A stretch of 64,000 nucleotides of DNA from Chrysomallon squamiferum (lineage: Eukaryota; Animalia; Mollusca), in assembly GCA_012295275.1 (NCBI GenBank), contig CM022671.1:32736001-32800000 (forward strand), given 5' to 3'. Under the pieces are notes generated by a model. That model saw only the letters and a program-made list of their open reading frames with translations, ran no database searches and was not told the DNA's origin. The translations under genes and the position numbers were made by a program. Shown here piece by piece: positions 2,627-63,784 of this stretch. The number at the start of each line of letters is the position of its first letter. Position 1 is the stretch's first letter.

Positions 2627-2699
2627 TCGAATATATTAGGCAAGACTGGTATGTATGAATTATTCCATCATTCTTCTTTGTGATAAAATTATACATGAA

Positions 2700-9628: not shown

Positions 9629-10262
<634 letters not shown>

Positions 10263-10264
10263 GT

Positions 10265-10480
10265 AGGTTTAATGCTTATAGTAATACCTTTAATGTTTAC
10301 ACTGACAGATTTAACGTTCACAGCGCTAGTTTTACGTTGGCAGTGCTACATGCTGCATTCACAGTGTTTAACGTTCATGGAGCTAGGTTTAACGTTGACA
10401 GTGCTAGGTTTATCGTTGACAGTGCTAGGTTTAACGTTGACAGTGCTAGGTTAACGTTCACAGAGGTAGGCCTAATGTTA
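10265..10480. repeat. 21-bp tandem repeat (ggtttaacgttgacagtgcta) with degenerate flanks
   Basis: Near-perfect copies at about 10387-10460; decayed copies on both sides. Confidence 0.8.
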
Positions 10481-11536: not shown

Positions 11537-13180
<1,644 letters not shown>

Positions 13181-15743: not shown

Positions 15744-18368
<2,625 letters not shown>

Positions 18369-21640: not shown

Positions 21641-22329
21641 TAGTATTAGTATTAGTAGTACTATTATGTTACCTTTCGTTTCTGGTAGGAGATGAAAATA
21701 AAAATGCATCGTAGTCAGATGGGACATTTATTTATAATAATATAAATATTTATTTTTAAAAGTACTGTAATTATTATTAAATGTTGTTTTTTTTTATTAG
21801 TAAATTTTAAGTAGAGGAAATGATTTTATTTTATTATTAAATGCACGTTTTTGAAAAATTCTAAATATTGTCAGGTGTTTCATTTTTTCTTATTTATGTA
21901 TTATTTATTTATTTTCAACGGGAGTGTAAATAAAAATATTTCTGTATCATAATACTAATTTTTCTCGAACATGACACATAATACAGATTATTCCCAAATG
22001 TTTGCTTAATTTTTGTTACATTGTGTAACTGAAAAAAAATATTTTAGTTGATAAAAATAGATATTCATTACACCTGTCTTTATTTTAATAAGTTACTGAT
22101 TCCTTTTGTACATGATCAGTGCACCTAGGCTTAGTATGGCTATGAAACTGATCATGTTACGATAAAAAATATAAGATGAAATGACTTTTAAAAGCAATTA
22201 AAACAAAATTATTTTAAAAATTTTAACGATAGGAGTTGACCCCAGTAGATTATCAACATTCTGGTTTTCATGACCTTCAACGCTTCAGTGATGAAATATG
22301 GATATTTTATAAGACTGCTAATCGCATTA

Positions 22330-22510
22330 GATGATGATTCTGTGCTGCCGATTTGGCTATGACGCACTCAGAATTGTTCATCCACTCTGAGGGGAATGTT
22401 TGGTTAAACATTTTGTGGGATACTGTTGGTGTGATCCACTTTGAGCTGCTAAACATTAAAGACGTGTCGTTATCAGACACAAAGGGTTTGCGTTTCACGA
22501 GAATAATGTA
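22330..22510 (+). mobile_element. Mariner-like transposase relic (also at ~51110-51245 and ~62700-62870)
   Basis: LWDTVGVIHFELL resembles the mariner/SETMAR (V/W)WD..G(V/I)(I/V)(H/Y).ELL motif; co-duplicated with array units. Confidence 0.6.
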
Positions 22511-23017: not shown

Positions 23018-24080
23018 TCAGTGGTGATAATTTCTGTAAATAAATGGAATGATGAGTATTTAATTATTTTATTAAATCCTTGTTATAATTAAACACAAAC
23101 AATGTCCAAGACTTTCTCTCTGTTACTCAGTTGTCTCTGTGTATCCATCATTCCTATCTATCTACTTTCTTACTATTTACATTCTATTTTTGTCAGTATC
23201 GCCACCTCTCTCCATGTCTCTAAGTCAGGCTGCAATAGTGGGATGACAATGAAATATTAAATGTGTATTTATTACATTTGACGTATTTAATAATTATAAC
23301 ATGTATTGCAACGTTCATAACATAAATAAATGCTCAGAAACAAAACAATAAAAGAAATGAAGGCAACAATATTAGTAAAATAATTTTAAGACATCAGAGA
23401 AGAAAAACAAGATTAAGAAAAAAGGAAAAAAATAACTTACTTCTTGTGGAATCTACGCCAGTCGTCATCTCTATCATGATGATTGTCTTCGATCAATACG
23501 TCCCGGTCTTCTCCTAAATGGGCGGCCACGTTTCTCTCTGTAGTAATCTTAAAGTAATATAAATTTAAATGGGTCAATTCAGAGACAAACAAATTACATA
23601 TGACTAAATAAATAAATAAATAAATATACTTCTATAGATACATACATATTCATTAATGTATGCAGACACACACATACATAAGTACATACATACAATCAAA
23701 CGGATACACAAACATAGATACATACAAACATACACACATATAGATGTACACACACATATATATATATAGTTACGTACAATAAACCTATCATATTTTTATA
23801 ACTACTTTCATATGAACAAATGGTACTATTTTACTATTGTGGTACCATCATCGTGTCTTTTTTGATCTTCTGAACGCGTTTCCCTATCTATAATTTCATT
23901 TTCTACTTCATCTTCGTCACCATCCTCTCCAGCATCACGTTTCTCAAAGACTTTGTCATCATCGTCAACACCAGCAGGGTACGCGTATTTCTCAGTTAGG
24001 GACCGTTCGCTATCGTCTTCCTTAGCGTTAGTGAAAACAACAGCTACAGTTAACACAACCACGAGGAACAGTAGCTTCAT
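23018..24080 (-). CDS. Array copy C, His/Asp-rich subfamily; exon 3 is frame-ambiguous
   Basis: Exons 24080-23846, 23547-23441 (107 nt) and 23033-23018. The paralogous acceptor gives RETR|SEDQKRHDDDYYREKRGRPFRRRPGRIDRRQSS* with an early stop. A CAG 10 nt downstream gives ..ERNVAAHLGEDRDVLIEDNHHDRDDDWRRFHKKNYHH*. Confidence 0.7.
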
Positions 24081-24223
24081 TTTCAGCTTTCTGGCTAAAA
24101 AATGCTGAGTGTGGTAGACAAATGTTCAAATAAATAAATAAATAAAAAAAAAAAAAAAAAAAACGGACATCTGGGCTAGAGTATTTCGAGGTCAATTAAA
24201 TACCGTGATAATAATCATAATAA

Positions 24224-24274
<51 letters not shown>

Positions 24275-24521
24275 AGCTACTGCTGCTGCTGCTACTACTA
24301 GTACTACTACTAAAAATAATAATACGAAGAAGAAGAAGAAGGAGGTTCACGAAGTAACGGTACAGTTTTCTAATAGTATCGCAACGGACAATACATCAAA
24401 TCAACATGTAAAAAACAGTGTAAACTAAAACAAAAACACTATCAGAACACCACTCTCCTGTGAAAGAAAGAAATGAAAACAGATGTAAAGCTGCGAGACG
24501 CAGAATAAAAACCACACTTAC

Positions 24522-24596
24522 TTTATCACGACAATGTCGTTCTGGGATGTGGATGTGGAATTTCTAGCATAGAATGTAGAGATGATTAACTTTATA
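24522..24596 (-). promoter_or_regulatory. TATA box and non-coding exon 1 of copy C (equivalent TATA boxes at 28575-80, 31424-29, 35577-82, 40737-42, 46339-44, 56930-35)
   Basis: Conserved (g/a)acTATAAA followed by a short exon ending in a GTAAGT donor, upstream of each of copies C-I. Confidence 0.75.
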
Positions 24597-25689
24597 GTCT
24601 TACACTACAATACGAAATTTCTATTACAGTTGAAGAATTAATCGACCAAAACAGCTAGATGAAAGCATATCATGCTCCAAACTAAATAGTAAATGATTGC
24701 TTTTATCGAAATATAAAATTGTACACAAAAGATGGTTAAAAACATTGTTTTCAGAAATAAAGTATTCTGTTTTTCACATAATTAATATGTTTGTCTCTCT
24801 GAAGCTAAACTGATAGCACCACAGATGGCAATGAGATCATTCCTTTTCTAAATTTCTACTGAAAGCTTTTTGTTGCAAATAATGAATAGATTTTGAAATG
24901 GTAGTAAAAAATCGAATCTATGTTGTTACTGATTTATTTTCATTTTCATACTATTAATTACTTCATAATGATCTGTAATTAAAAATTATAACAGCCGACT
25001 GGACAGAATATATATATATATATAATTTTTTAAAAACAAACTTAAATCCTTAATGATTCATCTCTATTTCACCATGTATATAAAACATGTTTTCCGAACA
25101 TTGGGCTGTAAACGCTTTTACAATTCATTAAAGATGTATAGATTTATAATAATCATAAGAAATAGAACTCATTAGCATCTGTTTCTATAGGTTACTAAAT
25201 ACATTTAAAAAGCATTTTCGCCTGAATGGTTCTTTAAATTTGTACATTAAATACTCGACATCGAATACTGAAATGTAAGCCAGAATCGGCTACCAGCTAA
25301 TTCATACCTACGCCCAAGCATCACGATGCAAAGACTCTTTTGTGAGAGAAAAATAAAACAGATACTGAATAAATGATAGACGAATTCTGAACTGCAATAT
25401 TCGTTGTTTCTTCAACTTTGATATTTATTTATTTGTTTATTTTAGTTGTAAACTGTTTTATTTGTTTATGTTAGAAACCTAGATCTTTGAACATTGACCA
25501 AAACCTGTTTCCCTCTTCACATTTATTCCTTGTACTTCTTTTCACGTCTTCCTTCTATTTCATTGTTATTTCCCTTGACCAAACACTTTCTACTATATAC
25601 TTAACCAAAAAGTTTAGCAAATTTTGTAAATGACTGTTGCTTCGAAACAAATTAAAATAGGAGTGATAAAATTTGGTAATATGTTAGTT

Positions 25690-25950
25690 GCATATGCTAT
25701 TTGTCATATCGCACGCCGCTATGTCTACTGCACGTGCAAACGCGGTGCGCTCGTGCTGTCCGCAGAAGCAACGGGACGGCTTAACGCCGGCCAACACGTA
25801 CAAGATATCGATCAATACTTTAGTGTTCGTGTCAGCACCATATCAAGATTCCGTTAACGGGTACACCAAACTGGGCAAGTGCAAGATCGACCATGTTCTT
25901 CCAAGGGAAGATAGGCATCTAGTGACGTCATCTCGGATTAATTGGATAGC
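25690..25950 (+). mobile_element. Tc1-like N-terminal transposase relic, co-duplicated (also ~32560-32935 and ~36745-37120)
   Basis: Frameshifted ..GRLNAGQHVQDIxQYFSVRVSTISRFR..PREDRHLVTSS resembles the Tc1 HTH region and sits at the same position in three duplicated units. Confidence 0.7.
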
Positions 25951-26969
25951 ACAATATCTCATCTCTTTATATTTGGCTTGATGGACGCAACTCAAGTAAA
26001 TAAGAATGTATTGTCTTGGAGAAGATAGGGTTTCTTTAATAATACGATGAGACTGAAAGAATAAAATTCTTGTCAAGTAAAATCAGAAAAGATTATCAGT
26101 GGATAGAATTACTAAATTAAAAATCCTGAATTAAAGTGAGGAGAAAATTGAATAAAATGCCTTCTACTGAGAGGAAACAGACAATTACTTGTCTAAGACT
26201 GTATTTTGTAATGAAGGGGAAAATATGTCCAGTCATACTATGAGCATGTCTCTCAAATAATTTGATATTTCCGATAGGTTTGTGGAAGAAAGTTCAGTGT
26301 CAAAGAAGAATACTGCAGATGGAAAGAAATGTACTGACGTCAAGGTCAAGGACCCTTATATTTTGATGATTAACGGAATGAAATGAATTATAGATTATCG
26401 AGGAAACTGTAATGGTTATTAATTTTTATTTATTATTTTATTTGTTTTATTAAACTTTAAGGACTGTAAATTATTTAATTTGATTACTAAATGTACATTT
26501 TTGAAAAATTTGCAACAAGTAAGTATTAATAACAATGAAACCGTTATTATCTGATTAAATCAAATGATACACATAATTTGAGAAGCAACAGCCTTTTGGC
26601 AAGGCGTTTCGAATTTTAGAAATGTCAAAATTCAACGGTTACATTCATTAAATGTTATTATCTAGTTAAAAAAGGTCAAGAACATCTTATTTCTATGTCT
26701 TTTCCTTAGTATTAAGCATTATCGATCATCTTAGTAGGAAAAAACAAGAAAACAAAATTAAACTATTTGATTTGCTCAACTTTGTCTTACATTTTTCATC
26801 AATGAAATTAAAACGAGGGAATAACAATACAACAGTATGAAGCAGTTTCAGATATTTATTTACGTTTCAAAGTGATACTTGTCTTTATGACTTGTAGAAG
26901 TATCTATGCAGTTGTTTTCTCTATGGTTAGTGTACCGGAACACTAAAACATACTTTATCCTTTTCTTCA

Positions 26970-27664
26970 TCAGTGGTGATAATTTCTGAAAATAAATGGA
27001 ATGATGACTGTTTAATTATTTTTAAAATCCTTGTTATAATTAAACACAAACAATATCCAAGACTTACTCTCTGTTACTCAGTTGTCTGTGTGTATCTATC
27101 ATTCCTATCTATCTACTTTCTTACTATCTAGTTTGTATGTTTGTCAATATCGTCACCTGTCTCCATACCTGTAATTTAGGCTGCAATAATGAGATGACAG
27201 TGGAGTACTAAATATCTGTATTTATAACGTAGACATTATATTTGAGTATTTAATAATTATAACATGTATTGGAACGTTGATAACATAAATAAATGCTCAG
27301 AAACAAAACAATAAAAGAAATGAAGGCAACAATATTAGTAAAATAATTTTAAAACATAACCGAAGAAAGAAAAATTAAGAAAAAAGGAAAGAAAAATAAC
27401 TTACTTCTTGTGGAATCTACGCCAGTCGTCATCTTTGTCATGATAATAGTCACGATCGCCATGTCTTCGATCATCATGTCCATGTTCCCTTCTGTAGTAA
27501 TCTTAAAGTAATATAAATTTAAATGGGTCAATTCAGAGACAAACACATTACATATGACTAAATAAATAAATAAATATATTTTTATAGATACATATATATT
27601 CATTAATGCATGCAGACACACACGCACACACACATACATATACATGTACAAACATACATAAGTG

Positions 27665-27746
<82 letters not shown>

Positions 27747-28050
27747 GTTACATACAATAAACCTATCATATTTTTATAACTACTTTCATATGAACAAATG
27801 GTACTATTTTACTATTGTGGTACCATCATCGTGTCTGTTGTGATCTTCTGAACGCGTTTCCCTGTCTATAATTTCATTTTCTACTTCATCTTCGTCACCA
27901 TCCTCTCCAGCATCACGTTTCTCAGTGACTTTTCGTCATCATCCATCAACATCGTCTTTCTCAGTTATAGACCGTCTTTCTATCGTCTTCCTTAGCGTTA
28001 GTGAAAACAACAGCTACAGTTAACACAACCACGAGGAACAGTAGCTTCAT
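26970..28050 (-). pseudogene. Array copy D, His/Asp-rich subfamily; exon 2 frameshifted as assembled
   Basis: Exon 2 (28050-27824, 227 nt) reads ..NAKEDDRKTVYN*. Exon 3 (27501-27405) is intact, DYYRREHGHDDRRHGDRDYYHDKDDDWRRFHKK, and exon 4 (26985-26970) reads NYHH*. The frameshift may be an assembly error. Confidence 0.65.
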
Positions 28051-30305
28051 TTTCAGCTTTCTGGATAAAAAATACTGAGTGTGGTAGACAAATGTTCAAA
28101 TAAATAAATAAATAAATAAATATACAGCCTCTTCATTAGAATACACACATAAAACAAAATAAAAATATACACATAAACAGATATCAAGGCTAGAGTAGTT
28201 GGTGGTCAATTAAATATCGTGATAATAATCATAACAACACTACTACTACTACTACTACTACAGCTGATGCTGCTGCTACTACTACTACTACTACTAAAAA
28301 TAATAATACGAAGAAGAAGAACAAGGAGGTTGACAAAGTAACGGTACAGTTTTCTAATAGTATCGCAACGGACAATACATCAAATCAACATGTAAAAAAA
28401 CAGTGTAAACTAAAAGAAAAACACTATCAGAACACCACTCTCCTGTGGAAGAAAGAAATGAAAACAGATGTAAGCTGCGAGACGCAGAATAAAAACCACA
28501 CTTACTTTATCACGACAATGTCGTTCTGGGATCTGGATGTGGAATTTCTAGCATAGAATGTAGAGATGATTAACTTTATAGTCTTACACTACAATACGAA
28601 ATTTCTATTACAGTTGAAGAATTAATCGACCAAAACAGCTATTTCATATAATGCTATCATGCTTATCACGCTCCAAACTAAATAGTAAATTACATTTATC
28701 GAAATATAAAATTGTACACAAAAAATGGTTAAAAGCATTGTTTTCGGAAATAAAGTATTCTGTTTTTCACATAATTATTATATTATGTTCGTCTCTCTGA
28801 AGCTAAACTGATAGCACCACAGACGGCAATGAGATCATTTCTAAATTTCTACATTGAAAGTTTTTGTTGCAAATAATGAATTTATTTTTGAAATAGCAGT
28901 TTTTACTGATTTAGTTTCATTTTCATAATTAATTCTTCATAAAAAAATCATAACATCTCTCCAAACAGAAATAATATATATAAATGAAATATATTTTATC
29001 GAAATCCTTAATGATTCAAAACCATGTATATAAAAATTTTTTGGAAATTTGTATATGCATTTTCGAACATTGGGCTGTAAACGCTTTTACAATTCATTTT
29101 TTTAAAAAAATAGAACATTTTCGCTTGATTATGCATCTGTTTCTATAGGTTACTAAATACATTTGAAAAGCATTTTCGCCTGAATGGTTCTTTAAATTTG
29201 TACATTAAATACTGACATCGAATACTTAAGCCAGAATTTTTTCGCCCAAACATCACGATGCAAAGACTCTTTTGTGAGACGAAAACAGATTCTGAAAAAT
29301 GATAGACGAATTCTGAACTGCAAATTCGTTGTTTCTTCAACTTTTAGCAGGCTGTAACGTTCTGAAAAAACCTAAATCACAGCAGCCATTGGATGATACG
29401 AGAAAGTTAGTAGATGTGATTTCAGGAATGTGGAATATGTTTCTCGCTCATGAACATAGTACAGATTACTGCGAAATGTTTGCTTAATTTTTGATGCACT
29501 GTCCAATGTGAAAACAAATTTTAATTGATCAATATACATACTCGTTGTATCTGTATTTTAATGAATTACTGACCATTTTGTACGTAATTACTCCATTTAG
29601 GCTCAATATTCTATAAAATGTATCAAATTACACAAAAAGTAATAATTGGAATGACTTTTAAAAGCAATTATATCATTCACAAGGTTTATTTCTCTAAATG
29701 TTTCACGTTCAAAATACTCTAAATATTTCTTAATCAAAAATTTATTAAAAGTAGTTCAGTATTTTTGAAAATGTATTATTATTATTATTATTATTATCAT
29801 TATTATTATTATAGTTGTCGCTCTAGTTTCCATTGCTACTGACAACAATAACAATAATAATTGTCTAGTTGGAGAAAGTCAAGAACATCTTGTTTCTATG
29901 TCTTTTCCTTAGAATTAATCACTATCGATCATCTTAGTAGAAAAAAACAACAACAAAAAAAACTGTTGGATTTGCTCAACTTTGTATTACATTTTTCATC
30001 AATGAAATTGAAACGAGGGAATAACAATAGAACAGTATGAAGCAGTTTCAGATATTTATTTACGTTTCAAAGTGGTACTTGTCTTTATGACTTGTAGAAG
30101 CATCTATGGAGTTGTTTTATCTATGGTTAGTGTACTGCAATAATGAGATGAGAACGAAGTACTAAATATGTGTATTTATAACGTAGAAATTATTTTGAAG
30201 TATGTAATAATTATAACATGTATTGAACTTTCATAACATAAATGGAGTTGTTTTATCTATGGTTAGTGTACCGGAACACTAAAACATACTTTATCCTTGT
30301 CTTCA

Positions 30306-30870
30306 TCAGTGGTGAAATCCTCGGGGGCCACGCTTCTCTCTGTAGTAATCTTAAAGTAATATAAATTTAAATGGGTCAGTTCAGAGACAAACACATTACA
30401 TATGACTAAATAAATAAATAAATAAATATAATTTTATAGATACATACATATTCATTAATGTATGCAGACACACACATACATAAGTACATACATACAATCA
30501 AACGGATACATAAACATGGATACATACAAACATACATACATATAGATGAACATATATATATATATATACATAAAATAAACATATCATATTTTTATAACTA
30601 CTTTCATATGAACGAATGGTACTATTTTACTATCGTGGTACCATCATCATCTCTTTTGTGAACTTCTGAACGCGTTTCCCTGTCTATAATTTCATTTTCT
30701 ACTTCATCTTCGTCACCATCCTCTCCAGCATCACGTTTGTCTGTGACTTTGCCAGGATCAATTGCATGGACCAAGTCTTTCTCAGTTAGGGTCCGTTCGC
30801 TATCGTCTTCCTTAGCGTTAGTGAAAACAACAGCTACAGTTAACACCACCACGAGGAACAGTAGCTTCAT
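30306..30870 (-). CDS. Array copy E (90 aa), exons 3 and 4 fused by an in-frame deletion
   Basis: Exons 30870-30642 and 30349-30306. Mature part: RETR|SEVHKRDDDDYYREKRGPRGFHH*. Confidence 0.82.
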
Positions 30871-31062
30871 GTTCAGCTTTCTGTCTAAAAAATACTGAGT
30901 GTGGTAGACAAATGTTCAAATAACAAAAATAAGTAAATAAATAAATATACAGGCTCTTTGTTAGAATACACACATAAAACAATATAAAAATATACACATA
31001 AACAGATATCTAGGCTAGAGTAGTTCATGGTCAATTAAATATCGTGATAATAATCATAATAA

Positions 31063-31113
<51 letters not shown>

Positions 31114-33955
31114 AGCTGCTGCTGCTGCTGCTACTACTAGTACTAAAAATAATAATACGAAGAAGAAGAAGAAGGAGGTTGACGAAGTAACGGTACAGTT
31201 TTCTAATAGTATCGCAACGGACAATACATCAAATCAACATGTAAACAACAGTGTAAACTAAAAGAAAAACACTATCAGAACACCACTCTCCTGTGGAAGA
31301 AAGAAATGAAAACAGATGTAAAGCTGCGAGACGCAGAATAAAAACCACACTTACTTTATCACGACAATGTCGTTCTGGGATGTGGATGTGGAATTTCTAG
31401 CATAGAATGTAGAGATGATTAACTTTATAGTCTTACACTACAATACGAAATTTCTATTACATCTGAAGAATTAATCGACCAAAACAGCTATTTCATATAA
31501 TGCTATCATGCTTATCATGCTCCAAATCGAATAGTAAATTACATTTATGGAAATATAAAATTGTACACAAAAGATGGTTAAAAAATTGTTTTCAGAAATA
31601 AGGTATTCTGTTTATGACATAATTATTACTATTGTGTTTGTCTATCTGAAGCTAAACTGACAGCACCACAGATGGCAATGAGATTATTCTTTTTCTAAAT
31701 TTCTACTGAAAGCTTTTTGTTGCAAATAATGAATAGATTTTGAAATGGTAGTAAAAAATCGAATCTATGTTGTTACTGATTTAGTTTCATTTTCATACTA
31801 TTAATTACTTCATAATGATCTGTAATTAAAAATCATAACAGCCGACTTGACAGAATATATATATATAATTTTTTAAAAACAAACTTGAATTCTTAATGAT
31901 TCATCTCTATTGCACCAAGTAAATAAAAATAATTTTTTGAAATTTGTATATGCATGTTTTCCGAACATTGGGCTGTAAACGCTTTTACATTTCATTAAAG
32001 ATGTAGAGATTTATAATAAGTATAAAAAATAGAACTCATTAGCATCTGTTTCTATTGGTTACTAAATACATTTGAAACGCATTTTCGCCTGAATGGGTAA
32101 TTAAATTTGTACATTAAATACTCGACATCGAATACTGAAATGTAAGCCAGAATCAGCTACCAGCTAATTCATACCTACGCCCAAACATCATGATGCAAAG
32201 ACACTTTTGTGAGAGAAAAATAAAACAGATAATGAATAAATGATAGACGAATTCTGAACTGTAATATTCGTTGTTTCTTCTACTTTGATATTTATTTATT
32301 TGTTTATTTTATTTGTAAACTGGTTTATCTGTTTATGTTAGAAACCTAGATCTTTGAACATTGACCAAAACCTGTTTTCCTCTTGACATTTATTCCTTGT
32401 ACTTCTTTTCACGTCATCCTTCTATTTCATTGTTATTTCCCTTGACCAAACATTTTCTACTATATACTTAAGCAAAAAGTTTTTGTAAATCACTGTTGCT
32501 TCGAAACAAATTAAAATAGGAGTGATAAAATTTGGTAATATGTTAGCTGCATCTGCTATTTGTCACATCGCACGCCGCTATGTCTACTGCACGTGCAAAC
32601 GCGGTGCGCTCGTGCTGTCCCCAGAAGCGCGTGCAATACGGACGTATTGAAATCACATTCTGATGCACTGACCCAACATTACCCAAAAACAAAAGTAAGA
32701 ATTTATCCTGTTATAATAGGTCGCTGTCCAGGCTTAATGGAAAATTAACGTCATGAAGCACTGGGACGGCTTAACGCCGGCCAACACGTACAAGATATCG
32801 CTCAATACTTTAGTGTTCGTGTCAGCACCATATGAAGATTCCGTCAACGGGTACCCCAAACTGGGCAAGTGCAAGATCGACCATGTTCTTCCAAGGGATG
32901 ATAGCTATCTAGTGACGTCGTCTTGGATTAATTGGATAGCACAATATCTCATCTCTTTATATTTGGCTTGATGGACGCAACTCAAGTAAATAAGAATTTA
33001 TGCTCTTGGAGAAGGTAGGGTTTCTTTAATAATACGATGAGACTGAAAGAATAAAATTCTTGTCAAGTAGAATCAGAAAAGATTATCAGTGGATAGAATT
33101 ACTGAATTAAAGATCCCGAATTAAAGTGAGGAGAAAATTGAATAAAATGCCTTCTACTGAGAGGAAACAGACAATTACTTATCTAAGACTGTATTTGTGA
33201 TGAAGGGGAAAATATGTCCAGTCTTACTATGAGCAGGTCTCTCAAATAATTTGATATTTCCGATAGGTTTGTGGAAGAAAGTTCAGTGTCAAAAAAGAAT
33301 ACTGCAGATGGAAAGAAATGTACTGACGTCAAGGGCAAGGACCCTTAGTTTTTTCATGATTAACGGAATGAAATGAATTATAGATTATCGAGGAAACTAC
33401 TGGTTATTAATTTTTATTTATTTTTTTATTTGTTTTATTAAACTTTAAGGACTGTAAATTATTTAATTTGATTACTAAAGGTACATTTTTGAAAAATTTG
33501 CAGCATTAAGTATTAATAACAATGAAACCGTTATTATCTGATTAAATCAAATGATACACATAATTTGAGAAGAAACAGCCTTTTGGCAAGGAGTTTCGAA
33601 TTTTAGAAATGACAAAATTCAACGGTTACATTCATTAAATGTTATTATCTAGTTAAAAAAGGTCAAGAACATCTTGTTTCTATGTCTTTTCCTTAGTATT
33701 AAGCATTATCGATCATCTTAGTAGCAAACAAAACAACAAAAAGATAAACTATTTGATTTGCTCAACTTTGTCTTACATTTTTCATCAATGAAATTAAAAC
33801 GAGGAAATAACAATAGAACAGTATGAAGCAGTTTCAGATATTTATTTACGTTTCAAAGTGATACTTGTCTTTATGACTTGTAGAAGTATCTATGCAGTTC
33901 TTTTTTCTATGGTTAGTGTACCGGAACACTAAAACATACTTGATCCTTTTTTTCA

Positions 33956-34644
33956 TCAGTGGTGATAATTTCTGAAAATAAATGGAATGATGACTGTTTA
34001 ATTATTTTTTAAATCCTTGTTGTAATTAAACACAAACAATGTCCAAAAATTTCTGTCTGTTACTCAGTTGTCTCTGTGAATCTATCATTCCTATCTATCT
34101 ACTTTGTATTTTTGTCAGTATCGTCACCTGTCTCCATACCTGTAATTCAGGCTGCAATAATGAGATGACAAGGAAGTACTAAATATGTGTATTTATAACG
34201 TAGAAATTATTTTTGAAGTATGTAATAATTATAACATGTATTGGAACGTTCGTAACATAAATAAATGCTCAGAAACAAAACAATAAAAGAAATGAAGGCA
34301 ACAATATTAGTAAAATAAATTTAAAACATCACAGATGTAAAACCAAATTAAGAAAAAAGGAAATAAAAATAACTTACTTCTTGTGGAATCTACGCCAGCC
34401 GTCATCTCTGTCATGATAATAGTCACGATCGTCATGTCTTCGATCATCATGTCCATGTTCCCTTCTGTAGTAATCTTAAAGTAATATAAATTTAAATTCA
34501 GAGACAAACACATTACATATGAGTAAATAAATAAATATAATTTTATAGATACATACATATTCATTAATGCATGCAGACACACACGCACACACACATAAAT
34601 ATACATGTACAAACACACATAAGTGCATACATACATATAGATGT

Positions 34645-34685
<41 letters not shown>

Positions 34686-34997
34686 GTTACATACAATAAA
34701 CCTATCATATTTTTATAACTACTTTCATATGAACGAATAGTACTATTTTACTATTGTAGTACCATCATCGTGTCTTTTGTGAACTTCTGAACGCGTTTCC
34801 CTGTCTATAATTTCATTTTCTACTTCATCTTCGTCACCATCCTCTCCAGCATCACGTTTCTCAGTGACTTTGTCGTCATCATCAACATCAGCAAGGTACG
34901 CGTCTTTCTCAGTTATAGACCGTTCGCTATCGTCTTCCTTAGCGTTAGTGAAAACAACAGCTACAGTTAACACAACCACGAGGAACAGTAGCTTCAT
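33956..34997 (-). CDS. Array copy F (115 aa), His/Asp/Arg/Tyr-rich peptide precursor
   Basis: Exons 34997-34763, 34474-34378 and 33971-33956. Mature part: RETR|SEVHKRHDDDYYRREHGHDDRRHDDRDYYHDRDDGWRRFHKKNYHH*. Confidence 0.88.
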
Positions 34998-37900
34998 GTT
35001 CAGCTTTCTGGCTAAAAAATACTGAGTGTGGTAGACAAATGTTCAAATAAATAAATAAATAAATAAATAAACAGCCTCTTCATTAGAATACACACATAAA
35101 ACAAAATACAAAAAATACATATAAACAGATATATAGGCTAGAGTAGTTCGTGGTCAATTAAATATCGTGATAATAATCATAATAACATTACTACTACTAC
35201 TACTACAGCTGATGCTGCTGCTACTACTACTACTACTACTAGTACTACTACTAGTACTACTACTACAGCTGGTGCTGCTGCTACTACTACTACTACTAAA
35301 AATAATAATACGAAGAAGAAGAAGAAGGAGGTTGACAAAGTAACGGTACAGTTTTCTAATAGTATCGCAACGGACAATACATCAAATCAACATGTAAAAA
35401 ACAGTGTAAACTAAAACAAAAACACTATCAGAACACCACTCTCCTGTGGAAGAAAGAAATGAAAACAGATGTAAAGCTGCGAGACGCAGAATAAAAACCA
35501 CACTTACTTTATCACGACAATGTCGTTCTGGGATGTGGATGTGGAATTTCTAGCATAGAATGTAGAGATGATTAACTTTATAGTCTTACACTACAATACG
35601 AAATTTCTATTACAGTTGAAGAATTAATCGACCAAAACAGCTAGATGAAAGCATATCATGCTCCAAACTAAATAGTAAATGATTGCTTTTATCGAAATAT
35701 AAAATTGTACACAAAAGATGGTTAAAAACATTGTTTTCAGAAATAAAGTATTCTGTTTTTCACATAATTATTACTATTGTGTTTGTCTCTCTGAAGCTAA
35801 ACTGATAGCACCACAGATGGCAATGAGATCATTCTTTTTCTAAATTTCTACTGAAAGCTTTTTGTTGCACATAATGAATAGATTTTGAAATGGTAGTAAA
35901 AAATCGAATCTATGTTGTTACTGATTTAGTTTCATTTTCATACTATTAATTACTTCATAATGATCTGTAATTAAAAATCATAACGGCCGACTTGACAGAA
36001 TATATATATATATATATATATATATAAGAATATATATATATATATATAATTTTTAAAAACAAACTTGAATCCTTAATGATTCATCTCTATTTCACCATGT
36101 ATATAAAAAATGTTTTTGGAAATTTGTATATGCATGTGTTCCGAACACTGGGCTGTAAACGCTTTTACATTTCATTAAAGATGTATAGATTTATAATAAT
36201 TATAAAAAATAGAACTCATTAGCATCTGTTTCTATTGGTTACTAAATACATTTGAAAAGCATTTTCGCCTGAATGGGTCTTTAAATTTGTACATTAAATA
36301 CTCGACATCGAATACTGAAATGTAAGCCAGAATCAGCTACCAGCTAATTCATACCTACGCCCAAACATCATGATGCAAAGACACTTTTGTGAGAGAAAAA
36401 TAAAACAGATAATGAATAAATGATAGACGAATTCTGAACTGTAATATTCGTTCTTACTTCTACTTTGATATTTATTTATTTGTTCATTTTATTTGTAAAC
36501 TGTTTTATTTGTTTGTTAGAAACCTAGATCTTTGAACATTGACCAAAACCTGTTTTCCTCTTGACATTTATTCATTATACTTCTTTTCACGTCATCCTAC
36601 TATTTCATTGTTATTTCCCTTGACCAAACACTTTCTACTATATACTTAAGCAAAAAGTTTAGCAAGTTTTTGTAAATGACTGTTGCTTCGAAACAAATTA
36701 AAATAGGAGTGATAAAATTTGGTAATATGTTAGCTGCATCTGCTATTTGTCATATCGCACGCCGCTATGTCTACTGCACGTGCAATCGCGGTGCGCTCGT
36801 GCTGTCCGCAGAAGCGCGTGCAATACGGACGTACTGAAATCACATTCTGATGCACTGACCGAACACTATCCAAAAACAAATGTAAGAATTTATCCTGTTA
36901 TAATAGGTCGCTGTCCAGGCTTAATGGAAAATTAACGTCATGAAGCACTGGGACGGCTTAACGCCGGCCAACACGTACAAGATATCGCTCAGTACTTTAG
37001 TGTTCGTGTCAGCACCATATCAAGATTCCGTCAAAGTACATCAAACTGGGCAAGTGCAAGATCAACCATGTTCTTCCAAGGGATGATAGCTATCTAGTGA
37101 CGTCATCTCGGATTAATTGGATAGCACAATATCTCATCTCTATATTTGGCTTGATGGACGCAACTCAAGTAAATAAGAATTTATGCTCTTGGAGAAGGTA
37201 GGGTTTCTTTAATAATACGATGAAACTGAAAGAATAAAATTCTTATCAAGTACAATCAGGAAAGATTATCAGTGGTCAGAAATACTGAATTAAAGATCTT
37301 GAATTAAAGGAAGGAGAAATTTGAATAAAATGCCTTCTAGTGAGAGGAAACAGACAATTACTTTTCTAAGACTGTATTTGTGATGAAGGGGAAAATATGT
37401 CCAGTCATACTAGGAGCAGGTCTCTCAAATAATTTGATATTTCCGATGGGTTTGTGGAAGAAAGTTCAGTGTCAAAGAAGAATACTGCAGATTGAAAGAA
37501 ACGTACTGACGTCAAGGTCAAGGACCCTTATTGTTTCATGATTAACGGAATGAAATGAATTATAGATTATCGAGAAAACTGTAATGGTTATTAATTTTTA
37601 TTAATTTTTGTATTTGTTTTATTAAACTTTAAGGACTGTAAATTATTTAATTTGATTACTAAATGTACATTTTTGAAAAATTCTGAACTTTGTCAGGCCT
37701 TTCATTTCTTCCTATTTACTTATTTATTTTCATTGTGAGTGTGAAAAAAAAAGTATCTCTGTTTCATATGTTTTTAAGAAATACTTTATTATTAAATTAG
37801 TCCAATACTTTGTTGCTTTTTTTTTTTTCTTGATCAGTATTACGAGTGTACGAATCCGATTCAAAATATTTTTCTCGCTCATGAAAATAGTACAGATTAC

Positions 37901-38908: not shown

Positions 38909-39752
38909 TTATTTCCTGTAGAAGTATCTATGCACGTATATTGTTCCTCGACTTCTTTTGTAATGCGAATACACATAGTGTCTTCGACCTTTTTTCAGTG
39001 TTGCCATTCGATGACGTGGTAGATAAGCTCTGAAAATAAAATTAGAATGATCACTGTTTAATTATTTATTAAATCCTTGTTATAATTAAACACAAACAAT
39101 ATCCAAGAATTTCTGTCTGTTACTCAATTGTCTCTGTGAATCTATCATACCTATCTATCTACTTTGTATTTTTGTCAGTATCGTCACCTGTCTCCATACC
39201 TGTAATTCAGGCTGCAATAATGAGATGACAACGAAGTATTGAATATGTGTATTTATAACGTAAAAATTATTTTTGAAGTATGTAATAATTATAACACATA
39301 TTGCAATGTTTATATCATAAATAAATGCCAATAAAACCAGCAAGAACACAATAATAAAAGAAATGAAACCAATAATAATAGTAAAATAATACTAAAATAT
39401 CAGAGAAGCAACAAACACACACGCACGTGCGCACACACGCACACAAACACGTCGAAAAAAAAGATAAAGAAAAGAAAAAAGAAAGAACTTACCGCATTCC
39501 ATGTCCCCTATAAGCAGGAATAATCTTGAGGAAGTGGTGCCTACTGAATTGCTTCAGTGCAGCACAGTAACCTCCCGCTTTATTCCTTTGTATCACCACA
39601 TACCTGATTCGGTGGCCATGTAGCAATCTGTAGAAAACTTAAAACAAAACAGATTAACATTATTAAATAAATTTAGAAATAAACAATAATTAAATACGTT
39701 ATTTCAAGATATTCACACATTATGCAGATTGCGGCACACACACAGAGACATA

Positions 39753-39788
<36 letters not shown>

Positions 39789-40238
39789 TGTGAGTGTACA
39801 TATATATAATATACATTAATTGATGCAAACATATTAAAAACATACATGTCTACATGCATATATACATAAGTACATACCAACAATGAGACATACACACACA
39901 CACACACACACATATACATACATACATACACACTTACACACACAGAAACATACATACAATAAACCTATTATATTTTTATAACTATTTTCATATGAACGAA
40001 GTTAGACTATTTTATTATTTATGGTACCTTTTCTGTTGGAGTTTGATCGCGTTTCCCTGTCTATAATTTCATTTTCACCATCCTCTCCAGCATCACGTTT
40101 CTCAGTGACTTTGTCATCATCATCAACATCAGCAGGGTACGCGTCTTTCTCAGTCAGGAAGCTTTCTGTATCGTCTTCCTTAGCGTTAGTGAAAACAACA
40201 GCTACAGTTAACACCACCACGAGGAACAGTAGCTTCAT
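38909..40238 (-). CDS. Array copy G (158 aa), strongly cationic secreted protein precursor
   Basis: Exons 40238-40028, 39637-39493 and 39029-38909. Mature part: RETR|SNSNRKVFYRLLHGHRIRYVVIQRNKAGGYCAALKQFSRHHFLKIIPAYRGHGMRAYLPRHRMATLKKGRRHYVYSHYKRSRGTIYVHRYFYRK*. Confidence 0.9.
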
Positions 40239-44670: not shown

Positions 44671-45813
44671 CTATTTCCTGTAGAAGTATCTATGCGCGTA
44701 CACTGTTCCCAGTCTTCTGTTGTAATACAAATACACTACCAGATAGTGTCTTCGACCTTTTATCAGCATTGCAACTCGATGACGTGGTAGATAAGCTCTG
44801 AAAATAAAATTAGAATGATCACTCTTTAATTATTTTATTAAATCCTTGTTATAATTAAACACAAACAATGTCAAAAAATTTCTCTCTGTTACTCAGTTGT
44901 CTCTGTGTATCCATCATTCCTATCTATCTACTTTCTTACTATTTACATTCTATTTTTCTCAGTATCGCCACCTCTCTCCATGTCTCTAAGTCAGGCTGCA
45001 ATAGTGAGATGATAATGAAATATTAAATATTAGTATATTTATAACGTACAAATTATATCTGACATATTTAATAGAATAAATGAAAGCAATAACAATTGTA
45101 AAAATAATAATAATAAAATAATAAAAAAGAAAAGAAAAAGAACTTACTTCATTCCGTGTTTCTTATACGGATGAACTGAGTGGAAGCGGTACCCATAGAA
45201 CTGTTTCAGTGCAGCACACGAACCTCCCCTTCTGTGACTCGTTGTCACAACATACTTGATTCGGTGGCCACTTCTCACTTTGTAGAAAACTTAAAACAAA
45301 TAGAAACGTGATTAAACAAACTGACAGAAGAATTAAATGCATTAATTCAAGATTCTCACACATTTATATATATATATATATATTTATTTATTTATATATA
45401 TACTTTAATGGATGCACATATAGATAGTACATGTCTACATATACACATATATATATAAACAATAAAACATATATCCATCCATACATACATACATACATAC
45501 ATATATAAATATACGATAAACCTATCATATTTTTATAACTATTTTCATGTGAACGAACTGGTACAATTTTACAATTTACGATACCACGTCTTCTGTCGGA
45601 CGTTGAACGCGTTTCCCTGTCTATAATTTCATTTGCTTCTTCATCGTCGTCACCATCCTCTCCAGCATCACGTTTCTCAGTGACTTTTCCAGAATAATCA
45701 TCATCACCTAGGTCCAAGTCTTTCTCAGTCAGGATGCTTTCTGTATCGTCTTCCTTAGCGTTAGTGAAAACAATAGCTACAGTTAACACCACCACGAGGA
45801 ACAGTAGCTTCAT
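44671..45813 (-). CDS. Array copy H (165 aa), strongly cationic secreted protein precursor
   Basis: Exons 45813-45585, 45289-45148 and 44797-44671. Mature part: RETR|STSDRRRVFYKVRSGHRIKYVVTTSHRRGGSCAALKQFYGYRFHSVHPYKKHGMKAYLPRHRVAMLIKGRRHYLVVYLYYNRRLGTVYAHRYFYRK*. Confidence 0.9.
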
Positions 45814-46016: not shown

Positions 46017-48689
46017 GTAATACGAAGAAGAAGATGACGAAGAAGAAAGAACAATAAGGAGAAGGAGGAGGCTGAAGACATAACAGTAGAATTTCTAATA
46101 GTATCAAAATGAACAATATAATCAAGTCAATATATATATATATATATATAAGATATATATAAGATATGAACTAGATGTGAACTAACCATCAGAACACCAG
46201 CCTCCTCTCGAAAAAAAGAAACTAAAAAATGTGAAAAGTTGCGAGACGCAGAATACAAACCTAACTTACGTTATGACGATAATGTCGTTTTGAGATCTGG
46301 ATGTGGAATTTCTGGGATACCATGTAGAGATGATGATCTTTATAGTTTAGACTACAATACGAATTGTATAACTTTTGAAGAATTAATCGTCCGAAACAGC
46401 TAGATAAAAGCATATTATGCTCCAAAATAAATAGTAAATTACATTTAGCGAAATATTAAATTGTACACAAAAGATGGTTAAAACCATTGTTTTCACAAAT
46501 AAAGTATTCTGTTTTTCACATAATTATTAACACTATGTTTGTCTCTCTGAAGGTAAACTGACAACACCACATATGGACTAAGATTATTGTTTTTCTAAAT
46601 TTCTTCTAAATACATTTTGTTGCAAATAATGAATAGATTTTGAAACAGTAGTAAAAAATCGAATCTATGTTGTTTCCATCACTTCACTGTTGATTGTCAA
46701 ACTGTTTTCAGTTCAATTTGTTTTCTGTTTGTTAACTGTGATCTGGAAAATACTAAATGAAATTATATGAATTAAACTATTTGATCATAAACTCTTTTTA
46801 GATACACTGTAATTGTAGATGTCTTGTGTGGCTTGATCAAACATCCGTTTAATGAAATATTATCTGATTTATTTTGGTTTTGCATTCCATTAATTATTTT
46901 GTAGTAATCTGTAATAAAAAAATTATAACAGTCGACTTGACAGGAAATATATATTATCTTTTTAAAAGAAATTCGATTCCTCTGTATTGCATCATGTAAA
47001 TAAAAATAATTTTTAGAACTTTGTATATGCATGATTTGATAATGTGAAAAATTGTTTTCCGTACATTGGGCTGTAAAAGCCTTTACATTTCATAAAAAGA
47101 TGTATACATTTATACTAATCAAAAACAAAATGGAACTAGGTAACATGTGTTTCTGTAGGTTACTTAAATACATTTCAAAAACACTTCGCCTGAATGGGTC
47201 TTTAAATTTGAAATACTGAAATGTAAGACAGAATCGGCTACCAGCTAGTTCATACATACACACCCAAACATCATGATGCAAAAACTCTTTTGTGAGAGAA
47301 AAATAAAACAGATAATGAATAACTGATAGACGAATTCTGAACCGTTATATTCATTGTTTCTTCTATTTTGATATTTATTTATTTGTTTATATTAATTCAA
47401 AAGTTTGTGATATGTTTTGGCGAGAAACCTAGATATTTGAACATTGAACAAAACCTGTTTTCGTGTTGACATTTATTTCGTTTTAAAGTCTTCCTTCTAT
47501 TTCATTCTTTTTTCCCTTAACCAAACACTTTCTAGTGTTTCTGTTTCCGGTGTGTCCGAGTTAACGTCCAGGGAAGACACGAAGTTGGGAAGTAACAGAT
47601 GGTTAGTATGTTGTTTGTTTAATTCACTATATCTGAAATCAGTTCACGATAGAAACAACTTTATTAATCGTCTACTGGAAATAATGATAACGTCCAAATA
47701 GTTAAAGAGACTCAGATACATCAGGGACACGTGTATGTATATATATAATATAGACACCGATAGTTGCCAAAATACAACAGATTTACATGCTGAGTACAGA
47801 GACAACGAGACACACGTGCAGCACAGACACACTATGATACTCAGTTAGCCAAGAATCAACATATAAAATAGAAAATCGTACATAGACAATTTGGCCATAC
47901 ATGGAAACAATATTCACAGTTAAATGAAATGATAATAGAAGAGGGAAACTAATAAACTATTATATATCTAAAGGAGTGAAGATCAGGTATTTTGACAATA
48001 GTGTATTCATGTACGCCTAGTTCAGAAGTTCGATTATACCTATGCAAATTCATAGGACAAATAACATTATTAAACCGATCTAGTTCTGTGTACATTTTAT
48101 TTATTTGGAAGGAGGCTTTTATTGTTGTTTTCTTTTATAAACATATGAAGCTCATATGAAGTTCGCCAAAACTGTTTGATGTTGATTTCTTACAAATATA
48201 AGTGAACAGACTCTACTATCGTATTTAAATTACTCACACGTTCTTATTCCTGGAAATTATTAATATGCAAAGCTCCCTTTTATCTATTTGTTCTTTCCGT
48301 TATATGAATGTTAATTAATTAGAAATACTAGCTGGGGACTGAACTGAAAACCGAAATACATTTTCAGTATTAATCTTTAGAGATTTGTGAATTTACAATA
48401 TTTTACTGTTCTTTTAATGTGTGCAGTTCTTACTATATTTTACTTTCATTTTAATGCGTGCAGAATTTACTATACTTTACTTTTTATTTAATTGGTGCAG
48501 TTCTTCCTGTAATGATCTGGTTTGTAATAAACTTGGTTTTGTTGTTGCTTTCATATCTTAATAAAGTGAAAACAACAGTACCAATTATAAAAAAAATAAT
48601 GTAGGCAACATGTCGTCGACATCTGGTATTTTCATGCACAAGTTGTTTTTGTGAAATAGTTCGCCTGCCAAATTAGCAAAATTAAACCT

Positions 48690-48990: not shown

Positions 48991-49146
48991 TGAGCCTCCC
49001 TCACCATTTTGTTAGATGTACATTAAAGTGACGACGTGACAATATTCTGAAATGTTGTATCAGTCAAATAATTTGTACAAATAAATTCAACATCCGATCA
49101 GGTTGTCTGTATTTTATATCTTGTACGTAATTGCTAAACTTATTTG

Positions 49147-55217: not shown

Positions 55218-56020
55218 TTAGCTCTTGTAGAAGTATCTGTGCAGGAGTACTGCTCGACTTTTTCTGTCATAAGACTGACTCGTTACAATGTAGTATGTTT
55301 TCCATTTCTGCAGAGCTACTGATCGATGACCTTTTAGGCGACCTCTGAAAATAAAATTAGAATGATCACTGTTTAATTATTTTATTAAATCCTGGTTATA
55401 GTTAAACACAAACAATGTCCAAGACTTTGTCTCTGTCACTCAGCTGTTTCTGTGTATCCATCATCCCTATCTGTCTACTTTCTTACTATCTACTTTGTAT
55501 TTGTCTGAATATCGTCTAATTGAGGCTGCAATAATGGGTTGATAATAAAGTATTAAATGTTTATTGATAACACACAAATTATTTTTGACGTATTATTTAA
55601 TAAATATAACACGTTATTGCTATGTTTATATATTTTAAAAATGCTAAAAAAACAGTAAAATAATTTTAAAATATGAGATAACAAAAAAACAAATAAACAA
55701 AACAAAAAAAAAAAAAACCTGAAAAAAAAAATAAGAAAAAGAACTTACATCATTCCGATTTTCTTATACGGATAAATATAGAGGAAACGGTAACCATAGA
55801 ATCGCTTTAGTGCAGCACATTGACCTCCTTTTTCATGCCTCGTTATCAAAACAACCTTGATTCGGTAACCATTTATTGTTTTGTAGAAAACTTAAAACAA
55901 AACAGAATAACATTATTAAATAAACTAATTAAAAAAAAAAAAAAACACTAGAATTAAATACCATAATTCAAGATATTTAGACATTATATATATGTGTACA
56001 CACACAGGCACACAAGCGCG

Positions 56021-56070
<50 letters not shown>

Positions 56071-56370
56071 TGCACACAATAAACCTATTATATTTTTATA
56101 ACTATTTTCATATGAACGAAGTAGTACTATTTTACTATTTATGGTACCTCTTTTGCCTTCTTCTGAACGCGTTTCCCTGTTTAGAATTTCATCTGTTATT
56201 TCGTCACCATTCTCTTCAGCATCACGTTTTTCAGAGATTTTATCATCACTAATAGCACGGGCCAACAATTTCTCAGTTAGGGAGCCTTCGCTATCGTCTT
56301 TTTCACCTTCCTTAGCGTTAGTGAAAACAATAGCTACAGATAACACCACCACGAGGAACAGTAGCTTCAT
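55218..56370 (-). CDS. Array copy I (163 aa), cationic secreted protein precursor
   Basis: Exons 56370-56148, 55890-55749 and 55344-55218. Mature part: RETR|SEEGKRVFYKTINGYRIKVVLITRHEKGGQCAALKRFYGYRFLYIYPYKKIGMIGRLKGHRSVALQKWKTYYIVTSQSYDRKSRAVLLHRYFYKS*. Confidence 0.9.
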
Positions 56371-60666: not shown

Positions 60667-61344
<678 letters not shown>

Positions 61345-61345
<1 letters not shown>

Positions 61346-61422
61346 TCAAGACTATGGCGTTGTTTGTGTTTAGATATCCTCTGAAAATATTAATGTAGTC
61401 ATATATTTAATTATTGCTTTTG

Positions 61423-63528: not shown

Positions 63529-63559
<31 letters not shown>

Positions 63560-63730: not shown

Positions 63731-63784
63731 GAATTTATAATTATTTTCGAATGAACTAAAAGAGTTATAATAATGAAAACATAC

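What the first reader, a model, noticed from the sequence alone, without database searches (positions are those of the whole stretch)
23018..34997. Young subfamily C-F swapped cargo for histatin-like His/Asp/Arg/Tyr peptides
Seen: under an almost identical signal and pro exon, exon 3 is replaced by low-complexity sequence built from internal repeats (HDDRR/HDDRD, DYY twice). Mature F is 46 aa with 9 His, 11 Asp, 9 Arg, several KR/RR/KK sites and a C-terminal HH. Its net charge is near neutral at pH 7 and becomes positive as His protonates. Established: histatins and other His-rich peptides bind Zn/Cu and act in a pH-dependent way. Inference: a metal-binding, pH-switchable or mineral-interacting peptide, possibly cut further at the dibasic sites, and a recent functional innovation inside the array.
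Basis: partly seen in the sequence, partly recalled or inferred. Interest (0 to 1): 0.8.

Follow-up and report, generated by a model that had tools for sequence, protein, structure and literature searches.

The report
Vent snail's new histidine-aspartate secreted peptide
In a cluster of look-alike secreted-protein genes of what is likely the scaly-foot vent snail, one young copy is spliced into RNA that encodes a short histidine- and aspartate-rich peptide in place of the family's long positively charged one; it would likely bind metal ions, while its three sister copies here are frameshifted, shortened or of uncertain reading.

Summary
Real gene, but the claim is too wide. RNA contigs from two studies use exactly these splice sites. 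Its repeat at residues 87-96 matches the published unannotated scaly-foot snail model CsqKR_Scaf268_9.8.

Only D/F-type exons give this peptide. D is frameshifted in this window, though D-type exons are expressed in an open frame elsewhere. E gives 23 aa. C gives an Arg-rich 33-mer unless a second acceptor is used.

The cargo was remodelled in place, not swapped. Exon borders, phases and the first ~35 nt are kept, ~70 nt are new, and an exon-4 frameshift makes the terminal HH. It is not a histatin: it is neutral, lacks HEXXH and has no N-terminal ATCUN.

Best reading: a secreted metal-chelating peptide derived from a cationic defence-type family (about 40%). Decay of spare copies is the main rival (about 25%). 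No binding or activity was tested, and 9.8 is in none of the published tissue-high lists.

The parts
35508..35538 (-). F non-coding exon 1, 3' end (start not fixed), followed by a GT donor
   Evidence: RNA contigs X3 and X4 run from exon 2 into exon-1-like letters (loose ends); donor read
34763..35007 (-). F exon 2: ATG at 34997, 19-aa predicted signal peptide, 50-aa acidic pro region ending in RETR, first 9 mature residues; phase-1 donor
   Evidence: splice joint in X1, X2, X3
34378..34474 (-). F exon 3 (97 nt): His/Asp/Arg/Tyr core with a 15-nt internal repeat (HDDRR/HDDRD, precursor residues 87-96)
   Evidence: both joints in RNA; repeat matches CsqKR_Scaf268_9.8
33956..33971 (-). F exon 4 coding part: a deletion shifts the frame against G/H and gives NYHH-stop; the old C-terminal codons follow as 3' UTR
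   Evidence: joint in X2 and X3
27824..28050 (-). D exon 2, frameshifted here (+1 near 27976, then -6, -2, -1); stop at 27963-27961
   Evidence: these indels are not listed for any contig
27405..27501 (-). D exon 3 (97 nt), 3 differences from F, all amino-acid changing
   Evidence: D-type bases in RNA contigs of X1 and X3
26970..26985 (-). D exon 4 coding part (NYHH-stop)
23846..24080 (-). C exon 2 (signal, pro, RETR), intact
23441..23547 (-). C exon 3 (107 nt): Arg-rich with a stop ending at 23474 from the first acceptor; 97 nt, in frame and His/Asp-rich from a second acceptor (exon start 23537)
   Evidence: no C-type RNA seen
23018..23033 (-). C exon 4 coding part, reached in frame only through the second acceptor
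30642..30870 (-). E exon 2 (signal, pro, RETR), intact
   Evidence: E-type exon in X9
30306..30349 (-). E fused exon 3/4 (intron 3 deleted with its flanks): 23-aa mature peptide ending in HH
   Evidence: junction present in X9 at depth 46
38909..40238 (-). G: older-type member, 158 aa, 94-aa cationic cargo (pI 11.5)
44671..45813 (-). H: older-type member, 165 aa, 96-aa cationic cargo (pI 11.1); by gene order probably the mantle-abundant model Scaf268_9.24
   Evidence: mapping inferred
55218..56370 (-). J: older-type member, 163 aa, 95-aa cationic cargo
15744..18368 (-). B: divergent member, 164 aa, 98-aa cationic cargo
11537..13180 (-). A: most divergent member, 165 aa, cationic C-terminal part, no RETR
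60667..61400 (+). K: inverted copy, intact exon 2, exon 3 hits a stop

Best explanation
F is a transcribed, spliced member of an orphan tandem gene family, likely of the scaly-foot snail, whose precursor is predicted to be secreted and cut at RETR, releasing a 46-residue His/Asp/Arg/Tyr peptide that would likely chelate transition-metal ions outside the cell. Shown: the gene, its splicing, its composition, and that G, H, J and B carry a ~95-aa cationic cargo under the same prepro exon. Inferred history: the C-F ancestor kept the exon frame but gained HDD at the end of exon 2, rebuilt most of exon 3 from a short His/Asp repeat, and cut exon 4 short by a frameshift that ends in HH; C, D and E then diverged or decayed. 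Inferred working: a furin-type cut after RETR, then probably cuts at some of five dibasic pairs, which would expose N-terminal His sites including one XXH (ATCUN-type) tetrapeptide. His and Asp side chains would bind Cu, Zn, Ni or Fe near neutral pH and let go as His protonates below about pH 6.5. The likely role is metal buffering or withholding at body surfaces of an animal living in metal-rich vent water, grown out of a surface-defence family.
For: Open frame with exact splicing in 5 of 5 RNA runs laid (of 8 listed), from two studies. Contigs of X2, X3 and X4 carry a 21-nt pro-region deletion that keeps the frame. The pro region shows dN/dS 0.34 (F-C), 0.46 (F-E) and 0.27 (F-G), on 10-18 changes each. 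HDD was added on both sides of intron 2. The RHDD(R)DYY motif occurs once across the splice junction and once inside exon 3, with 5 of 7 shared residues on different synonymous codons, which a plain DNA duplication would not give (read). 20 of 46 residues are His or Asp. Host context: the neighbouring receptor gene's best hit is Gigantopelta aegis at 60%, next 36%; the repeat table matches a Chrysomallon model; the snail lives in an iron-enriched environment (PMC7142155, section 9). Metal binding by His-rich peptides is established for histatins and microplusin.
Against: No binding, peptide or activity data. Signal and furin cleavage are predicted from motifs only. The mature D-F comparison has 5 replacement and 0 silent changes, too few to show selection either way. 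The pro region of C-E has dN/dS near 1. In this window D is broken, E is truncated and C is frameshifted, and X9 lacks most of C's exon-3 middle (depth 2.6): the pattern of a decaying array. Model 9.8 is in no tissue-high list and not in the Kairei-versus-Solitaire list. His content alone is not new: G and H already carry 8-9 His; the real change is loss of charge and gain of Asp. Intact F lacks HEXXH and an N-terminal XXH.
Confidence: 0.4

Rival explanations
1. C-F are spare duplicates in birth-and-death decay. Slippage and deletions scrambled the cargo, the inherited promoter still drives some transcription, and the His/Asp peptide does nothing.
For: 3 of 4 copies are broken, truncated or frameshifted here. 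Further remnants exist (K; fragments near 52.0 kb and 63.3-63.9 kb). Copies differ between X9 and the window. 9.8 has no published tissue enrichment. Mature dN/dS among G, H and J is 0.84-1.23, so even intact members look unconstrained in the cargo.
Against: D/F-type transcripts are open in both studies, the one indel seen in RNA is in frame, and the pro region looks constrained in pairs with F. The same motif was built twice from different codons. The composition lies far outside shuffles, although repeats alone can cause that.
Confidence: 0.25
2. F is an acid-switched antimicrobial or symbiont-controlling peptide, working like histatin, clavanin or hebraein: it turns cationic in acidic compartments or vent fluid and attacks microbes, with metal binding secondary.
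For: Charge rises from -1.9 at pH 8 to +8.7 at pH 5. The family has the layout of defence-peptide families: conserved signal, anionic pro, variable cargo, pseudogenes. Four of the five runs laid are labelled metatranscriptomic; this is only a faint hint of host-microbe tissue.
Against: Eleven Asp, almost no hydrophobic face, net neutral at seawater pH. The review passages read describe such peptides as membrane-active helices rich in Phe/Gly or cationic. No activity data.
Confidence: 0.17
3. F is a low-complexity matrix peptide for the shell or the iron-sulfide scales, binding Ca or Fe and steering mineral growth.
For: Secreted, repetitive and Asp/His-rich. The genome paper lists it among repeat-bearing proteins and links such repeats to mantle genes. 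A neighbouring model (9.24) has a mantle mean of 180,311 against 30,479 elsewhere, the highest of 61 rows seen.
Against: 9.8 itself is not in the scale, mantle or iron-versus-no-iron lists. By gene order 9.24 is more likely the cationic H than a C-F copy. Motif searches of the scleritome-proteome supplements found nothing, but the sheets seen list accessions, not sequences, so this is uninformative.
Confidence: 0.1
4. F is a new signalling-peptide precursor: dibasic cuts release short acidic Tyr-bearing peptides, possibly sulfated on DYY.
For: Signal peptide, five dibasic pairs, repeated units, and Tyr pairs next to Asp (sulfation preference recalled, not tested).
Against: No Gly-dibasic amidation signal, no family match, origin from a long cationic cargo, no neural expression data.
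Confidence: 0.08

Closest known systems
CsqKR_Scaf268_9.8, gene model of Chrysomallon squamiferum (PMC7142155; supplement rows seen, not the sequence)
   Same: Repeat at residues 87-96, period 5, two copies, unit HDDRD, exactly as in F. Listed as a novel gene on chr7 within a run of 12 models of which 11 are listed as novel and lack Pomacea and scallop partners.
   Different: No annotation, family or function is given in the parts read.
Histatins (HTN1/HTN3; PMC12155162, passages)
   Same: Short, secreted, His-rich, with Arg, Lys and Tyr; proteolytic fragments; pH-dependent charge.
   Different: Histatins are cationic, with N-terminal XXH and HEXXH. F is neutral with 11 Asp, lacks HEXXH, has His at position 4, follows an acidic pro region and shows no homology. 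Convergent composition at most.
Myticalins and modiocalins (mussel linear cationic peptides; PMC5577615, passages)
   Same: Molluscan multigene family, non-coding exon 1, conserved signal, anionic pro region, hypervariable cargo, pseudogenes, differences between individuals.
   Different: There the anionic part follows the mature peptide; here it precedes it. The older cargo here is ~95 aa over two exons. No sequence match found.
His-rich invertebrate peptides hebraein, microplusin, clavanins (PMC5198042, passages)
   Same: His-dependent charge switch; Cu chelation proposed for microplusin.
   Different: Hebraein and clavanins are described as helical. F is an Asp-rich low-complexity polyampholyte without Cys.
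Conserved-prepro, variable-cargo families such as cathelicidins, frog skin peptides and conotoxins (recalled)
   Same: Invariant signal exon, acidic spacer, convertase site, fast-changing cargo exons.
   Different: No homology; the only Pfam echo is Conotoxin at E 0.31, below its cut-off.

Membership tests
Histatins | Homology to HTN1/HTN3 (statherin gene family) | tested here: not met
   No Pfam family for F exon 3 and none above cut-off for exon 2; no database homologue of exon 2; host is a gastropod
Histatins | His-rich short secreted peptide | tested here: met
   9 of 46 residues are His; signal peptide predicted by eye
Histatins | Net cationic at neutral pH | tested here: not met
   -0.7 at pH 7, pI 6.73
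Histatins | N-terminal ATCUN (XXH) | tested here: not met
   First His is residue 4 after RETR; XXH appears only in the last four residues if the KK pair is cut (motif defined)
Histatins | HEXXH zinc motif | tested here: not met
   No match in mature F
Histatins | Cu/Zn binding and antifungal activity | not testable with these tools
   Needs synthetic peptide
Myticalin-type linear cationic peptides | Order signal, mature, dibasic site, C-terminal anionic extension | tested here: not met
   Acidic region lies before the cargo
Myticalin-type linear cationic peptides | Multigene, conserved signal, hypervariable cargo, pseudogenes | tested here: met
   0-2 codon differences in the signal; cargo dN 0.26-0.52 among G, H, J; D and K broken
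Molluscan shell-matrix low-complexity proteins | Signal peptide plus repetitive low-complexity domain | tested here: met
Molluscan shell-matrix low-complexity proteins | Enriched in mantle or scale-secreting tissue | tested here: not met
   9.8 appears only in the novel-gene, gene-order and repeat tables among 13 supplement files searched; this rests on F being 9.8
Molluscan shell-matrix low-complexity proteins | Found in shell or sclerite proteome | tested here: inconclusive
   Motif searches empty; tables use other identifiers, the spreadsheet was cut and two PDFs could not be read
Neuropeptide precursors | Repeated peptides flanked by dibasic sites | tested here: met
   Five dibasic pairs split F into six pieces
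Neuropeptide precursors | Amidation signal or known family motif; neural expression | tested here: inconclusive
   No Gly before a dibasic pair, no family match; tissue of the runs unknown

The most novel reading that the evidence does not exclude
The iron-armoured scaly-foot snail has recently turned a cationic defence-type secreted protein into a metal-chelating His/Asp polyampholyte, by rebuilding one exon in place and frameshifting the next. The peptide is part of how the animal handles vent metals, and copy C can switch between an Arg-rich and a His/Asp cargo through two splice acceptors 10 nt apart.
Probability: 0.2. Interest if true: 0.8.

Novelty: new variant of a known kind. Interest (0 to 1): 0.52.

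Why it matters
The genome paper lists these genes only as unannotated novel models, and the passages read name a transporter (MTP9), not a secreted chelator, as the metal-related candidate. If F binds metals, it is a cheap-to-synthesise, lineage-specific candidate for metal handling in a well-known vent animal. It would also be a traceable case of a charge-reversed peptide arising under an unchanged secretion cassette, with the intermediate copies still present. Separately, the array holds one very abundant mantle transcript (9.24), probably a cationic member, for which my searches found no description. If F proves inert, the locus is an ordinary birth-and-death array.

Tried and rejected
Splicing alternatives. 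The downstream CAG acceptor for F, which would give a Met/Ile-rich frame, and a 12-nt micro-exon were rejected by the RNA joints.

Taxon. My first guess was a cephalopod, from the microsatellites; it was dropped. No whole genome is held for the window.

Homologue searches, all empty:
- F exon 2 against 42-137-aa proteins, and against 138-2000-aa proteins (230 candidates, none at E<=0.01).
- Profile of five older-type exon-3 peptides against 1.84 billion representatives: 9 hits; 8 show many short stretches and 1 shows none scored. The one fetched was a simple repeat.
- Pfam for 12 array exon peptides: nothing above cut-off.
- ESM Atlas: best 0.80 for F exon 2, nothing for H exon 3.
- Exon-2 alignment in metagenome contigs: 40 pattern matches, none confirmed.
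- Earlier scan notes: nothing.
All protein queries were single exons, which limits sensitivity.

Structure. AlphaFold on the exon-3 alignment gave pLDDT 47.7 and pTM 0.18, unusable.

Source of the new 73 nt. Eight regions were tested (F, G and H pro; G, H and J exon 3; G and H exon 4). The best was G exon 4 at 24 of 500 shuffles, not convincing after eight tests.

Literature. The 'histidine-rich' model Scaf59_23.2 is a different gene. The search returned nothing because of the match mode and was repeated. The term 'Scaf268' found three silkworm papers only.

Absence of C- and E-type RNA and low contig depth are not used as evidence: the runs were picked with F's words, and contigs cannot show absence or level.
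Full report
THE LOCUS. The window (30.3% GC) holds a tandem array of related genes. Nine lie on the minus strand or inverted with ATGs at 13180 (A), 18368 (B), 24080 (C), 28050 (D), 30870 (E), 34997 (F), 40238 (G), 45813 (H) and 56370 (J); K at 60667 is on the plus strand. Each has a coding exon for a signal peptide and an acidic pro region, ending in RETR in all but A, then a phase-1 intron, exon 3, a phase-2 intron and exon 4. B, G, H and J release a 94-98-aa cargo with pI 10.3-11.5, and A has a similar basic C-terminal part. A/B and G/H/J cargoes align weakly (18-24% to G) and were not linked by tblastn, so their homology rests on exon 2, position, phase and length. That the long cationic cargo is ancestral is an inference from its presence in both groups.

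OBSERVATION. The model depended on choosing an AAG acceptor over a CAG 10 nt downstream and on skipping a possible micro-exon. Public RNA settles both. Of 9 runs listed, 8 are RNA or guessed RNA, and I laid five of these plus X9. On F, X1, X2 and X3 skip exactly 34475-34762, and X2 and X3 skip 33972-34377; X9 shows neither joint. On C, X4 and X8 carry the same 97-nt exon and X8 joins exon 4. These runs belong to two studies. Contigs of X2, X3 and X4 have an in-frame 21-nt deletion in the pro region. X1 and X3 hold D-type exon-3 bases, in X3 on one contig with an open exon 2; contigs can be chimeric. The composition is beyond chance.

D is frameshifted in exon 2. Its indels are not listed among X9's contigs although D-type intron 3 is there, so they may be private or an assembly error. 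E lost intron 3 with its flanks and gives 23 aa; the junction stands in X9 at depth 46. C, read from the acceptor that D/F use, gives an Arg-rich 33-mer whose stop ends 33 nt before the donor; the last 47 nt of its exon are 43/47 identical to F but out of frame. From the second acceptor C would give a 97-nt exon and a 46-aa His/Asp peptide ending in HH, which is untested. X9 barely covers the middle of C's exon 3. It has a loose end at 34448 that reads, by eye, as a C-like start in frame with the DDRR unit, hinting at further hybrid copies.

HOW THE CARGO CHANGED. C-F are set apart from G/H/J with support 1.0 in an unrooted tree, and differ by 2.7-10% in exon 2 against 10-18% to G/H/J. D's upstream kilobase is an exception at 14-19%. 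Intron 3 differs from G/H/J by 11-23%, but exon 3 by over 50% and the last 60 nt of intron 2 by 39-51%; that intron end also differs by 23-35% among G, H and J. The start of C's exon 3 aligns with G and H (1 and 3 of 300 shuffles as good), whereas F's barely does (15 of 300 for G). The last 73 nt of F's exon 3 match nothing in the window outside C, D and F except one 17-nt stretch at E 0.049, and contain a 15-nt repeat. Exon 4 is 20-26 nt shorter up to the old C-terminal codons than in G and H, which shifts the frame to NYHH-stop. Exon 2 gained HDD codons before its donor. The exon was therefore rebuilt in place: more than point change, less than a swap for a foreign exon.

WHOSE GENE. The intronless receptor ORF at 5754-6884 is 60% identical to a Gigantopelta aegis protein, with the other 14 hits at 28-36%, pointing to a peltospirid vent snail. 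[quoted passage not shown] F's repeat occupies residues 87-96. 9.8 is a 'novel gene' on chr7 within a run of mostly novel models. The genome-wide GC of that species is 34.5% (PMC7736800), higher than this window. I did not see the model's sequence.

EXPRESSION IN THE PUBLISHED TABLES. 9.8 is absent from the scale, mantle, gill, oesophageal-gland and Kairei-versus-Solitaire lists. Model 9.24 has a mantle mean of 180,311 against 30,479, the highest of the 61 rows I saw; the next is 23,408. Reading the order 23, 28*, 24, 7, 8, 25, 12, 10_53, 10_4 backwards along the window gives J, a transposase-like frame (48660-49031), H, G, F, E, C, B, A, which accounts for every model in that run. The opposite direction would make 9.24 C or D but needs extra novel models where the window has a PR/SET gene and the receptor. 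I put 9.24 = H at about 70%.

SELECTION. The signal region has 0-2 differences in all eight pairs tested. Pro dN/dS is 0.27-0.46 for F against C, E and G, 0.80 against H, and about 1 for C-E and among G, H and J. Cargo dN/dS among G, H and J is 0.84-1.23. D against F has 5 replacement and 0 silent changes in 46 codons. None of this is statistically decisive. One hint of selection on composition, read from the sequence: the motif RHDD(R)DYY occurs across the exon 2/3 junction and again inside exon 3, with five of seven shared residues on different synonymous codons.

MECHANISM. Shown: gene, splicing, composition, computed charge (-1.9 at pH 8, +0.9 at 6.5, +8.7 at 5). Inferred: secretion, a cut after RETR, further cuts at dibasic pairs, metal binding through His and Asp, release in acid. 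I commit to extracellular metal chelation (0.40), against decay (0.25), acid-switched antimicrobial action (0.17), mineral matrix (0.10) and signalling (0.08). It works like His-rich metal-binding peptides at most; it is not a histatin or a myticalin.

NOVELTY AND SOURCES. No homologue was found, all with single-exon queries. Nine paper searches showed no description of this family, but subscription papers are outside the library. What I saw of each paper: PMC7142155, sections 7, 8 (part 1 of 2), 9 and 23, passages and supplement rows, with one text file too large to read; PMC11871041, abstract, sections 6 and 7, passages and supplement searches, with the spreadsheet cut and two PDFs unread, which could bear on the matrix question; PMC7736800, PMC5577615, PMC5198042 and PMC12155162, passages only; all others, search listings only.

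VERDICT. A real, expressed, undescribed peptide variant of a familiar kind of gene family, in an unusually interesting animal, with function untested. Interest 0.52.

Noticed in passing
window 44671-45813 (H), or C/D if the order runs the other way: One array member appears to be model Scaf268_9.24, an unannotated gene with a mantle mean of 180,311 against 30,479 in other tissues. The cationic ~95-aa type may deserve study in its own right.
   Followed up: partly
window 23537-23547: Two acceptors 10 nt apart in C give either an Arg-rich 33-mer or a 46-aa His/Asp peptide of the same length as F's.
   Followed up: partly
window 34448 (loose end in run X9): A C-like exon-3 start joined in frame to the DDRR unit, not present in the window; suggests further hybrid copies or alleles.
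   Followed up: partly
window 5754-6884: Open 376-codon frame for a nicotinic-receptor-like channel (PF02931, PF02932), 60% identical to a Gigantopelta protein; small upstream exons may lie near 4620-4835.
   Followed up: partly
window 9630-10900: Multi-exon PR/SET-domain gene (PF21549, PF00856).
   Followed up: no
window 1030-3400: Exon-like stretches that read by eye like immunoglobulin or fibronectin domains, at the window's left end.
   Followed up: no
window 7160-8330: Tandem array of 47-49-nt units downstream of the receptor gene.
   Followed up: no
window 52000-52120, 60667-61400 and 63290-63860: Further family remnants: an isolated exon-3 end with donor, the inverted broken copy K, and pieces of exons 2 and 3 near the right end.
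   Followed up: partly
window 48660-49031, 22200-22500, 17100-17720, 53300-53900: Transposon remnants by eye: a Tc1/mariner-like frame, a mariner-like fragment, an inverted-repeat element in intron 3 of B, and a LINE-like piece (labels recalled).
   Followed up: no
Scaf268_9.26 in PMC7142155 (probably beyond the window's right end): Another novel model of this run is enriched 36-fold in the symbiont-bearing oesophageal gland, at low level (10 against 0.1).
   Followed up: no
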